Positions 1 through 60,724 of a stretch of 64,000 bases of DNA are shown piece by piece (positions within the stretch are counted from its first letter, which is position 1; every line of letters begins with the position of its first letter). The translations under genes were made by a program, and so were the position numbers. Source of the DNA: Podarcis vaucheri (Eukaryota); NCBI GenBank assembly GCA_965113315.1, contig OZ220382.1; one strand, 5' to 3'. Under the pieces are notes generated by a model, which was given only the letters and a program-made list of their open reading frames with translations, was not told the origin of the DNA and made no database searches.

Positions 1-578
1 GCTGAAGAAAGACCTTCTTCAAATAGCATCTGAATGGGTGCTGCCGATAAATCCCACCCCAATCTGTGAATCAGCATGGTAAATTCAGTCCAGTACTCAG
101 GGACAGATCTGCTTCCCTGCTTGCAAGCCATTAACTGTCTGCGCACCACCCCTTCCTCAATGTCGCTGGAAAACATGATATCCATTGCACGAAAGAATTT
201 CATAGTGTCCTTTAGGATATCGTTGTGCGTTGCCATCAGGGGTCGAACCCAGTCTCGCGCGCCCTTCTCAAGATGCCCAATTACAAAAGCAACTCGAGAT
301 TCCTCATCAGGGAACTCATCAAACTGGACATTCAGGGCATATTGCATTTCAGTCCTAAAGGCATGGTAATCCTTGGGGTCCCCCCCAAACTTCTGCACCA
401 ATCCTGGTACCTTTCTGGGGAACTGAGTGGTTCTCCCCTTCTTGTCTGCATCTTGAGCCCTCCTCTCCTCGAGCCTCGCCGTCTGCAGCGCCAGTTGGAC
501 CTCCAATGCTCGGTATCTTTCTTCCAAGCTTGGATCAGCTCCTCCCCCTGCTACTCCGGCTCCGGCTGGGTCGCTCAT
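1..578 (-). CDS. gag: Ty3/Gypsy (sushi/PEG10-like) Gag, N-terminal 192 codons, continues beyond window start
   Basis: Manual translation from ATG at 578-576 is stop-free to base 1: MSDPAGAGVAGGGADPSLEERYRALEVQLALQTARLEERR...QKFGGDPKDYHAFRTEMQYALNVQFDEFPDEESRVAFVIGHLEKGARDWVRP...RRQLMACKQGSRSVPEYWTEFTMLIHRLGWDLSAAPIQMLFEEGLSS. It has an N-terminal coiled-coil, an FxGDP motif, xAxxW, and the QGxRSVxEYxxEF major-homology-like motif of retrotransposon Gag. Starts 45 nt after the LTR. Confidence 0.93.
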   Translation of the reverse strand, partial: MSDPAGAGVAGGGADPSLEERYRALEVQLALQTARLEERRAQDADKKGRTTQFPRKVPGLVQKFGGDPKDYHAFRTEMQYALNVQFDEFPDEESRVAFVIGHLEKGARDWVRPLMATHNDILKDTMKFFRAMDIMFSSDIEEGVVRRQLMACKQGSRSVPEYWTEFTMLIHRLGWDLSAAPIQMLFEEGLSS

Positions 579-610
579 GATGCTTTCTCCTGCACAGGCA
601 GCGTACAGAG

Positions 611-621
611 ACTGTCGGACT
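611..621 (-). promoter_or_regulatory. Self-priming primer-binding site (Tf1/sushi type)
   Basis: Minus-sense AGTCCGACAGT, 2 nt after the LTR end, is the exact reverse complement of ACTGTCGGACT at 752-742 inside the LTR. There is no TGG-starting tRNA-type PBS. Confidence 0.75.
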
Positions 622-623
622 GC

Positions 624-1073
624 TATCAGGGGATGATTAGCTGCTTGTGCTTAAAATGGTGCCCCTTCAGAGTTTGTGCGGCCCCACAAACCTCTGTGTG
701 TAACAGAGCTCCTCAGACATGTCTGCTCTAGTCACTATTAGAGTCCGACAGTGGCTGTTTGCGGAAACGCCTCCAACAAAGAAGTTCCTTAACGGAAACA
801 CGTCTCCTGGACTCACGACGTGACAGCTTCCGACGAAGCATGGGTCTCCCTGCAGTTGCTTCTGACACCTCCCCACTATTTTCGCTGGACGTGTCTCTCA
901 CCCCTTTCTCTCCCCTGCTTCCTGCCTGCGTTGCTGCGTCTCTCTCAGTATTACTGAGATCCTCCTCCAGAGACCCCGCGCTCCCCCTGCTGGTCCCTGC
1001 TTTGGCTGTTGAGTCTCTCCCCGTCTCTGGGAGCCCTATCACCTCCTTTCCCTCTGATGTCAGTTCCCTGACA
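624..1073 (-). mobile_element. 5' LTR of the Gypsy element (450 bp)
   Basis: Minus strand starts TGTCAGGG and ends CCCTGATA (terminal inverted repeat CCCTGACA with one C>T). The first 18 nt are identical to the solo LTR at 60291 and the 3' ends align at equal distance from a shared GCAC motif. Lies directly upstream of gag. Confidence 0.88.
728..1072 (-). CDS. LTR(U3)-encoded open frame, 114 aa, no ATG at its start; probable C-terminus of an element ORF read into the 3' LTR
   Basis: Open from LTR base 2 (VRELTSEGKEVIGLPE...RRESRRRVSVKELLCWRRFRKQPLSDSNSD*); homologous at protein level to 60292-60621. Confidence 0.6.
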   Translation of the reverse strand, partial: VRELTSEGKEVIGLPETGRDSTAKAGTSRGSAGSLEEDLSNTERDAATQAGSRGEKGVRDTSSENSGEVSEATAGRPMLRRKLSRRESRRRVSVKELLCWRRFRKQPLSDSNSD

Positions 1074-2489
1074 ATCCTGTATATGTTTTTAGCTTTTTGT
1101 ATTGTATCTGTGTTGTTTTAATATATGTAAGCCACCTTCACTCCCGGTTTGGGTAAAAGGTAGTGTGTTGTAGTTGTTGTTAATCAGCATCCTTTGCAGA
1201 GTGCAGGGGTCCACTATAAAGAAGACACACCAGTGAGAAGGAAAGTGTGGACATTATTCATATGAAGTGCAACCATTTAAAAAGCTGCAGGCATGGCTAT
1301 AATTTTGGTTATTAACATAAGCCACAAAGTCATACCAAATTAAACTAAATTCATCACTTTTACCTTGGTCTCATTCAGTTTCTGTGTTAACTTTTCTAAT
1401 AATGCAATTTACCATATCTTTGTATGGTACTAATAGTTTATATCTGCTCCCACTATGTCTCTCCATTTTTGCTTTTCAGTGGCTTTTTTAAAAATTCAGT
1501 AATATGTAACATCACTTCAGCCAAAGTTTAGTGAAGATGATGGAGAGTGCTTAAGCTGACAACTACAAAAAAAACCTAAGCAACTTTTAGTATGTAATTT
1601 AAATCACTGATGGTTCGCAATCCATCCATGACCAGAAGCTTTTGTTTTCATCGCTGCTGGAACAACAATACTGGATCATTTTCTCCAGTGTGTGAAGCAT
1701 CGCTATTTGCAGCAACGTGAGCTGAAAATATTGGCAATGTGGGTGTATGCAACTTTAATAAAAATGAATGGCTGGGATTCCCCACACTTTTGAAACCCAG
1801 TTGTATGAAATCGCATGTGAACACCTATTTTATTTATTCATTTAGATTTACAGCCCACGCTATAACTGAAGAGTGGATACTTAACTTTTTAAAAAATACA
1901 AAAAAGACATAAAAGAGACAAATACATGGTTTACAACTGCATTATGGATTGGCACATGCATAAATGCATTGACATTCCTTTCAGACAGTTGAACCCCCTG
2001 CCCCGACCCCGTTTATAGTAGCAATTTACTATTTGCTGTAACTCCCACTTGATGTGCCTGGATTCTACAGCAGGGGTCAGCAAAATTTTAGGGCAGTGGA
2101 CTTTTTTGTTTACCTTTTTAAAATGTGGGCACAAAATGGCAGTGGTTGGACTATGTCATAATGCAAAATGGTTGCCATGTGGGACATGACCTAGCACATC
2201 ATGGCTGATGTAGGTGCCTTGTTTTCTAAAGATGCTGCATGGTTGTACCATTTTGTGGGCCTGTCTCTTTTAGATGTGGGAGCCATTTTATGCTATGTTT
2301 AATCCCCAGAGCAGCCATTTTGTAATTGACATCCATGACACTTTCTCAACCCCTGACTCAGGAGCACCAGCGTATGGGTTCTATATAATGGTGAATGTTA
2401 TCACCATTTAAATCAGTCTCCATACAAGTTATGATGCCAAATTCATAAACCCCTGTGCTTTAAAAAGTGGTGGGGATGACAGTCTGATC

Positions 2490-60290: not shown

Positions 60291-60724
60291 TGTCAGGGAA
60301 CTGACATCGGAGCCAGAGGTGGAGGCAAGGCTCCCAAGTGATGCTGGAGAAGGGCCCAGCAGGGAGAGAGGCAGCTCATCAGCGGGGGAAGGAAATCAGC
60401 GTAACACCAGGGATAAAGGGGGGCAGATGGGGGAATCGGCGAGGGGGCTCCAGGACTCCTCGTCAGAGACCAGCGGGGAGAGCACGGGTCCTCTGCTACC
60501 CACACCCTCCCTGCGCGGAAGTCTTCCGTGCAGGAAGAGTAGGAGGAGACTTGGCGTCAAACAGCTTTTATGCTGGAAAGGGTTTAAGAAACGCCCACTG
60601 ATGGATTCTGCTAGCGACTGAAACAGCCACGAAGTGAAGGGCTGTCCAGACAGAAAGGTTTAATCAGGCAACCTAGCCAGGAGTGGCGGCAACTTACGCA
60701 CGAGAAACCCCTATTATTATTACA
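60291..60724 (+). mobile_element. Gypsy solo LTR (434 bp), diverged relative of the LTR at 624-1073
   Basis: TGTCA...TTACA ends; perfect 5-bp TSD GTAGC at 60286-60290 and 60725-60729; starts TGTCAGGGAACTGACATC like the other LTR. Confidence 0.93.
60292..60621 (+). CDS. LTR(U3)-encoded open frame, 109 aa
   Basis: VRELTSEPEVEARLP...RKSRRRLGVKQLLCWKGFKKRPLMDSASD*; open from LTR base 2; homologous to 728-1072. Confidence 0.6.
   Translation, partial: VRELTSEPEVEARLPSDAGEGPSRERGSSSAGEGNQRNTRDKGGQMGESARGLQDSSSETSGESTGPLLPTPSLRGSLPCRKSRRRLGVKQLLCWKGFKKRPLMDSASD

What the first reader, a model, noticed from the sequence alone, without database searches (positions are those of the whole stretch)
611..752. 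tRNA-independent self-priming signal overlapping the LTR peptide frame
Seen: the 11 nt just after the 5' LTR (AGTCCGACAGT, 621-611) are perfectly complementary to ACTGTCGGACT at 752-742. The intervening RNA contains a hairpin (CAGAG[G]TTTGTG/CACAAACTCTG, 668-696), and there is no tRNA-type PBS. Known: Tf1/sushi-group chromoviruses prime reverse transcription with the first ~11 nt of their own transcript. Inference: transcription starts at about 752, so the same 11 nt act as RNA 5' end, RT primer and the codons for P-L-S-D-S of the conserved peptide. The solo LTR has ACTGATGGATT at the equivalent site (60597-60607), predicting a compensatory PBS near AATCCATCAGT in full-length members of that subfamily.
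Basis: partly seen in the sequence, partly recalled or inferred. Interest (0 to 1): 0.7.

Follow-up and report, generated by a model that had tools for sequence, protein, structure and literature searches.

The report
Lizard retrotransposon self-primer inside integrase tail
A young, abundant jumping gene, probably in a lizard genome, has no tRNA landing site and likely starts copying itself with the first 11 letters of its own RNA, a trick known from yeast and predicted for this group; here those same letters, in the other terminal repeat, also encode the end of its integrase.

Summary
Confirmed, and mostly a known mechanism. Window 624-1073 is the 5' LTR of a 5,566-bp Ty3/gypsy chromovirus with identical LTRs. 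The PBS (611-621) begins 2 nt after the LTR and pairs perfectly with 742-752. Related families change both sides together at primer positions 4, 5, 7 and 10; genome-wide, 1,411 of 1,414 counted matches pair at position 7. A PBS predicted in advance for an older family was found (1 exact, 4 near, of 5). A second duplex (640-650 with 592-602) also covaries.

The 'LTR peptide' is the last 114 residues of Pol, which reads through the PPT into the 3' LTR and stops 11 nt past the primer sequence; it is under purifying selection. So the 5' copy would be the primer and the 3' copy the codons. Another chromovirus family here stops before its primer, so the overlap is dispensable.

Self-priming is shown for Tf1 and predicted for vertebrate Tf1/sushi elements; ORFs entering the 3' LTR are known in plants. 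I found no report of the overlap. The transcription start is untested. This scan noted self-priming chromoviruses before, in mosses.

The parts
624..1073 (-). 5' LTR, 450 bp, TGTCAGGG...CCCTGATA, identical to the 3' LTR of the same 5,566-bp element (G000:C42:17851508-17857073, mostly left of the window)
1074..1078 (-). Target-site duplication AGGAT, repeated after the 3' LTR
742..752 (-). Predicted self-primer ACTGTCGGACT; predicted RNA +1 at 752, in an initiator-like context (GCC-A-CT)
   Evidence: sequence; covariation; motif count; start site inferred
611..621 (-). Primer-binding site AGTCCGACAGT
622..623 (-). GC spacer between LTR end and PBS, kept in A-, B- and E-type copies
640..650 (-). 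U5 arm GCACAAGCAGC of the PBS-flanking duplex
   Evidence: (helix 4)
592..602 (-). Leader arm GCTGCCTGTGC of the PBS-flanking duplex (10 of 11 pairs in this copy)
   Evidence: (helix 4)
668..696 (-).
   Evidence: helix 3
700..735 (-). Hairpin covering the Pol stop-codon sequence; B-type copies fold a hairpin at the same place in another register
   Evidence: helix 2
728..1072 (-). 5' LTR copy of the last 114 codons of Pol plus stop (TAG 730-728); translatable as Pol only in the 3' LTR copy
1..578 (-). 5' part of gag (ATG 578-576); Retrotrans_gag, and zf-CCHC beyond the window edge
60291..60724 (+). Solo LTR of the older B-type family, TSD GTAGC; primer-position 11-mer at 60597-60607

Best explanation
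The element is a chromodomain Ty3/gypsy retrotransposon whose RNA likely starts at 752, folds its first 11 bases onto the PBS at 621-611 and would use them, after a predicted RNase H cut, as the minus-strand primer, as Tf1 does. Shown: the pairing, its covariation, a second PBS-flanking duplex, and Pol reading through the 3' LTR copy of the 11-mer under purifying selection. Inferred from Tf1 and standard LTR replication: start site, cut and priming. Further inference: once the primer is cut off, strong-stop DNA lacks those 11 bases, so they would be inherited from the 3' LTR copy, which is the coding one, and the retained primer could template the new PBS. The primer sequence would then evolve mainly through third codon positions and the PBS would follow.
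For: 68 of 70 fetched pattern matches pair at all 11 positions, in four haplotypes. Genome counts at position 7: 828 A:T, 583 G:C, 2 and 1 unmatched. B-type 5' LTRs: 19 of 29 perfect, 7 with one G-U, 3 with one mismatch. PBS predicted in advance for family E (note): exact in 1 of 5, and all 5 pair with their own LTR at 9-11 of 11 positions. Flanking duplex 92.8% paired with 2 two-sided changes. Variable primer positions 4, 7 and 10 are third codon positions; 5 is a first position (S/T/P). Tail: 102 of 112 distinct parsed LTRs are open to a stop at the same place, 107 of 112 keep frame; dN/dS 0.25-0.41, and 0.11-0.21 over the last 40 codons. Family E has AATAAA about 80 nt after the primer position; family D has GATAAAA about 30 nt before its own.
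Against: No start-site data. The window's subfamily has no TATA at -30 (TTCTTT; B-type has TTTTAT) and no AATAAA or ATTAAA in its LTR. The initiator-like motif occurs 5 times in 450 bp and is also constrained by the Pro-Leu codons. The third Tf1 duplex, just 5' of the PBS, is only 2-3 bp. Copies are kin: the position-7 change may be one event, and distant sites (window 823, 507, 462) track it about as well. The patterns fixed several primer and PBS positions, so copies changed there were not counted.
Confidence: 0.86

Rival explanations
1. The 11-mer is the primer but is not the capped 5' end: it is cut out of a longer RNA (an upstream start, the 3' R copy, or a co-packaged RNA) and then anneals to the PBS.
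For: Fits all covariation data equally. No TATA at -30 in the window's subfamily. The 3' LTR copy is in the same RNA.
Against: Needs two cuts. In the 3' copy the 11-mer lies inside Pol, 11 nt before the stop, so it cannot be a natural 3' end. The duplex starts at a pyrimidine-purine step in every family seen, and in family D about 30 nt after GATAAAA.
Confidence: 0.08
2. The duplex is structural (packaging, dimerisation or control of gag translation) and priming uses something else, such as a tRNA fragment.
For: No priming data here; no tRNA set was compared with the PBS.
Against: The PBS changes with the element's own LTR at four positions, which a host RNA would not follow. Position and length match Tf1 (passages).
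Confidence: 0.05
3. Chance complementarity carried along by descent.
For: Copies are related, so counts overstate independent events.
Against: 20 of 20,000 shuffles; at least six two-sided changes among families; advance prediction met; an unrelated family shows the same layout with other letters.
Confidence: 0.01

Closest known systems
Tf1/Tf2 of Schizosaccharomyces pombe and Tj1 of S. japonicus (self-primed reverse transcription; passages of PMC7175516, PMC10085805 and its preprint, PMC4600332, PMC11042837)
   Same: 11-nt PBS complementary to an LTR site, no tRNA PBS, chromodomain integrase, a duplex between PBS-flanking sequence and U5.
   Different: Separate gag with CCHC knuckle and pol in the -1 frame; 2-nt spacer before the PBS; third duplex only 2-3 bp; Pol reads through the 3' LTR copy of the primer; start site and cleavage not shown here.
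[quoted passage not shown] 2001 and Piskurek et al. 2009 seen only as citations)
   Same: Vertebrate chromovirus with predicted self-priming; the clade is reported in amphibians and sauropsids. Named hits include fish, frog and fungal 'Tf2' polyproteins.
   Different: In one search only three Podarcis muralis proteins covered the tail (89-100% of the region); fish, frog and fungal hits covered under half, and the two unnamed ones I read (P0008, P0010) end just after the chromodomain. I could not check whether Amn-ichi has the tail.
Plant CRM group A, and Reina elements Bingo1-4 and 7 (passages of PMC3059260, PMC3605345)
   Same: Pol coding region runs into the 3' LTR; in CRM that part holds a targeting motif.
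   Different: CRM has a tRNA-Met PBS and a CR motif in place of a chromodomain. Here a chromodomain precedes the PPT and the tail overlaps a self-primer sequence.

Membership tests
Tf1/sushi chromoviruses (V-clade) | Ty3/gypsy domain order PR-RT-RH-IN | tested here: met
   best PDB match Ty3 Gag-Pol
Tf1/sushi chromoviruses (V-clade) | Chromodomain at the integrase C-terminus | tested here: met
   PF00385 at Pol 1099-1148, E 1.5e-11
Tf1/sushi chromoviruses (V-clade) | No tRNA-3'-end PBS; PBS complementary to a 5' LTR site | tested here: met
Tf1/sushi chromoviruses (V-clade) | The complementary site is the RNA 5' end | not testable with these tools
   No RNA holder listed; only contigs could be laid
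Tf1/sushi chromoviruses (V-clade) | Three-duplex 'pretzel' around the PBS | tested here: inconclusive
   Central and 3'-flanking duplexes covary; the 5'-flanking one is 2-3 bp
Tf1/sushi chromoviruses (V-clade) | RNase H cut after base 11 and priming | not testable with these tools
   Needs biochemistry
Tf1/sushi chromoviruses (V-clade) | RT-IN tree position inside the clade | not tested
   No tree with named references was built; only hit names
Plant CRM group A | Pol extends into the 3' LTR | tested here: met
   114 codons
Plant CRM group A | CR motif instead of a chromodomain, and tRNA-Met PBS | tested here: not met
   Chromodomain present; no tRNA-type PBS

The most novel reading that the evidence does not exclude
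In this lizard lineage the reverse-transcription primer is inherited through protein-coding sequence. The 3' LTR copy encodes a conserved basic integrase tail that acts as a second chromatin- or DNA-binding module, the 5' copy is the primer, and the primer rewrites the PBS at each round, so primer and PBS evolve together mostly through synonymous changes. No search here found this overlap described.
Probability: 0.4. Interest if true: 0.55.

Novelty: new variant of a known kind. Interest (0 to 1): 0.36.

Why it matters
Self-priming was shown in yeast and, in the passages I read, is 'implicated' or predicted for vertebrate elements. This genome holds more than a thousand related copies of several ages, which gives natural covariation evidence at four primer positions and a second helix. 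Young copies make endogenous start sites and cDNA intermediates easy to look for. The overlap of promoter region, primer and integrase tail is a compact case of multiple coding, and the tail is a candidate targeting module like the plant CR motif. The basic mechanism is not new.

Tried and rejected
Start site: no RNA holder listed; four runs laid were all contigs, three only guessed to be RNA and mostly under 95% alike; no conclusion drawn. Rfam on 400-1200 gave nothing; ARAGORN found no tRNA in the window. The tail has no Pfam match, no usable Atlas hit and two unnamed relatives among 1.84 billion representatives; these blanks do not show novelty. Linkage test of primer templating versus descent: inconclusive, because distant sites track position 7 nearly as well; the three unmatched copies in that set were fetched on purpose. 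An independent LTR-encoded gene was rejected: the frame is continuous with Pol and has no ATG near the LTR start. In one search the row labelled L072 was an A-type LTR nested in that locus and was dropped, and A-versus-B synonymous distances are near saturation. The original Tf1 papers were not held.

Full report
The observation. Both 11-mers are at the stated coordinates and are exact complements; a match of this length arose in 20 of 20,000 LTR shuffles. The window is G000:C42:17856001-17920000 of a 1.6-Gb genome. The closest named proteins are from Podarcis muralis, so the host is probably a lacertid lizard (inference).

The element. DNA left of the window completes a 5,566-bp element with 450-bp LTRs (window 1073-624), TSD AGGAT and a purine tract before the 3' LTR. 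In 7 of 7 full-length copies examined the LTRs are identical, and the six others differ from the window's copy at 4-8 positions, so the subfamily is very young; two of them have broken pol frames. gag carries Retrotrans_gag and a CCHC knuckle; pol carries protease, RT, RNase H, integrase, SH3_Tf2-1 and a chromodomain. The PBS begins after a GC spacer, not at the LTR edge.

Covariation. A pattern leaving primer positions 1, 5, 6, 7 and 10 free matched 1,390 times, the control 0. I fetched the first 70 of the 100 listed: 68 pair at all 11 positions in four haplotypes, one has a mismatch, and one is a parsing effect of a local duplication. Exact counts for position 7 gave 828 and 583 matched, 2 and 1 unmatched. 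For the solo-LTR family (B), 29 of 30 loci were parsed: 19 perfect, 7 with one G-U, 3 with one mismatch; the usual PBS is AATCCGTCAGT. A tail search led to an older family (E) with ACTCCCGGATT in 21 of 30 loci. I noted the expected PBS before seeing the result. The five matches read AATCCGGGAGT once exactly, and all five pair with their own LTR at 9-11 of 11 positions; four are followed by gag. Across families the pair changes on both sides at positions 4, 5, 7 and 10. Caveats: patterns fixed some positions, copies are kin, and the linkage test could not separate templating from descent.

Structure. On 19 hand-picked representatives (the B-type ones chosen among perfectly paired copies, so helix 1 is favoured), a second duplex, U5 640-650 with leader 592-602, is 92.8% paired with two two-sided changes. 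Family E keeps the second duplex. It crosses the primer duplex, as expected of the Tf1 'pretzel', in which two PBS-adjacent sequences pair with the LTR downstream of the primer (passages). The other flank pairs by only 2-3 bp.

The peptide. The frame is the end of Pol: after the chromodomain come an acidic stretch, the PPT codons and 114 codons inside the 3' LTR, ending in a basic segment and PLSDSNSD. The stop lies 11 nt after the primer sequence. Of 112 distinct LTRs parsed, 107 keep the frame across eight in-frame length classes and 102 are open to that stop. dN/dS between the window's copy and three A-type subfamilies is 0.25-0.41, and 0.11-0.21 over the last 40 codons; third-position differences are the commonest class in 8 of 8 pairs. 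Three of the four variable primer positions are third codon positions. Position 1, a fourfold-degenerate site, does not vary in the sets examined, which fits a start-site constraint but does not prove it. Family D shows that the overlap is optional: it has a self-complementary PBS and a Pol that enters the LTR but stops before the primer.

Mechanism. Shown: pairing, covariation, coding overlap. Inferred from Tf1 (first 11 bases pair with the PBS, RNase H cuts between bases 11 and 12; passage of PMC7175516): start at 752, cut, priming. Inferred from standard LTR replication: strong-stop DNA would lack the primer bases, so they come from the 3' LTR, the coding copy. In Tf1 about half of the cDNA keeps a PBS copy at its 3' end (passage of PMC11042837), which offers a route for the primer to rewrite the PBS. 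Against: no start-site data, and no TATA or AATAAA in the window's LTR.

Comparison. It works like Tf1 and meets the tested sequence criteria of the vertebrate Tf1/sushi (V) clade; tree position was not tested. Self-priming in that group is in print (passages of PMC6317226, PMC4600332, PMC10085805), the clade is reported in sauropsids (PMC2774666), and ORFs entering the 3' LTR are known in plant CRM and Reina elements (PMC3605345, PMC3059260). PMC3601003 was read in passages for LTR motifs. Searches listed no paper whose title, abstract start or read passages describe a Pol tail overlapping a self-primer; most listed papers were seen only as listings. Butler et al. 2001, Piskurek et al. 2009 and the Levin papers were seen only as citations, no supplements were opened, and repeat databases were not searchable; any of these could describe the tail. 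Earlier scan notes report the same priming layout in moss chromoviruses (unchecked) and none for this genome.

Verdict. A real, well-supported self-priming signature of a known kind, with an apparently undescribed overlap between primer sequence and a conserved integrase tail. New variant of a known kind; interest 0.36.

Noticed in passing
window 624-631 (minus): The LTR ends in TA, not the usual CA, in both LTRs of 7 of 7 full-length copies, with clean 5-bp TSDs; 222 5' junctions with this end were counted genome-wide, on more than one LTR background (listings). In the window's subfamily it adds one pair next to the primer duplex.
   Followed up: partly
L169-L184: A distant chromovirus family (D; copies up to 99% identical to P0009) has a 10-nt self-complementary PBS 2 nt after CA, perfect in 15 of 16 copies. 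Its Pol also runs into the 3' LTR but stops about 37-43 nt before the primer site. Its tail holds RRSARL, which I recall as the core of the HMGN nucleosome-binding motif (recalled, untested).
   Followed up: partly
L188-L222: Older family E, mostly solo LTRs, keeps AATAAA in the LTR; the window's LTR has no AATAAA or ATTAAA. Where A-type RNAs end is unexplained.
   Followed up: partly
L031, element nt 1422-1530 (left of the window): gag and pol overlap by 85 nt with pol in the -1 frame; no canonical slippery heptamer was found. GGTAAAA precedes inverted repeats that could form a frameshift stimulator by eye; the fold did not reproduce that hairpin.
   Followed up: partly
L037, L038 (G000:C30): Two copies about 5.4 kb apart, each preceded by the first 280 bases of a related LTR; the one checked has TSD ACGCG, so it sits inside that LTR.
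   Followed up: no
L154: An 11-nt duplication spanning the LTR end and PBS in one copy, possibly slippage at plus-strand transfer.
   Followed up: no
L186: Apparent recombinant: primer site of one subfamily, with LTR end, PBS and gag start like the window's subfamily, leaving one mismatch.
   Followed up: partly
G000:C41: 19 of the 40 matches and 16 of the 37 lie on this one contig, suggesting a repeat-rich chromosome.
   Followed up: no
window 10628-59795, many places: Dispersed short repeats with internal palindromes (families D2-D8), recalled as typical squamate SINEs or MITEs.
   Followed up: no
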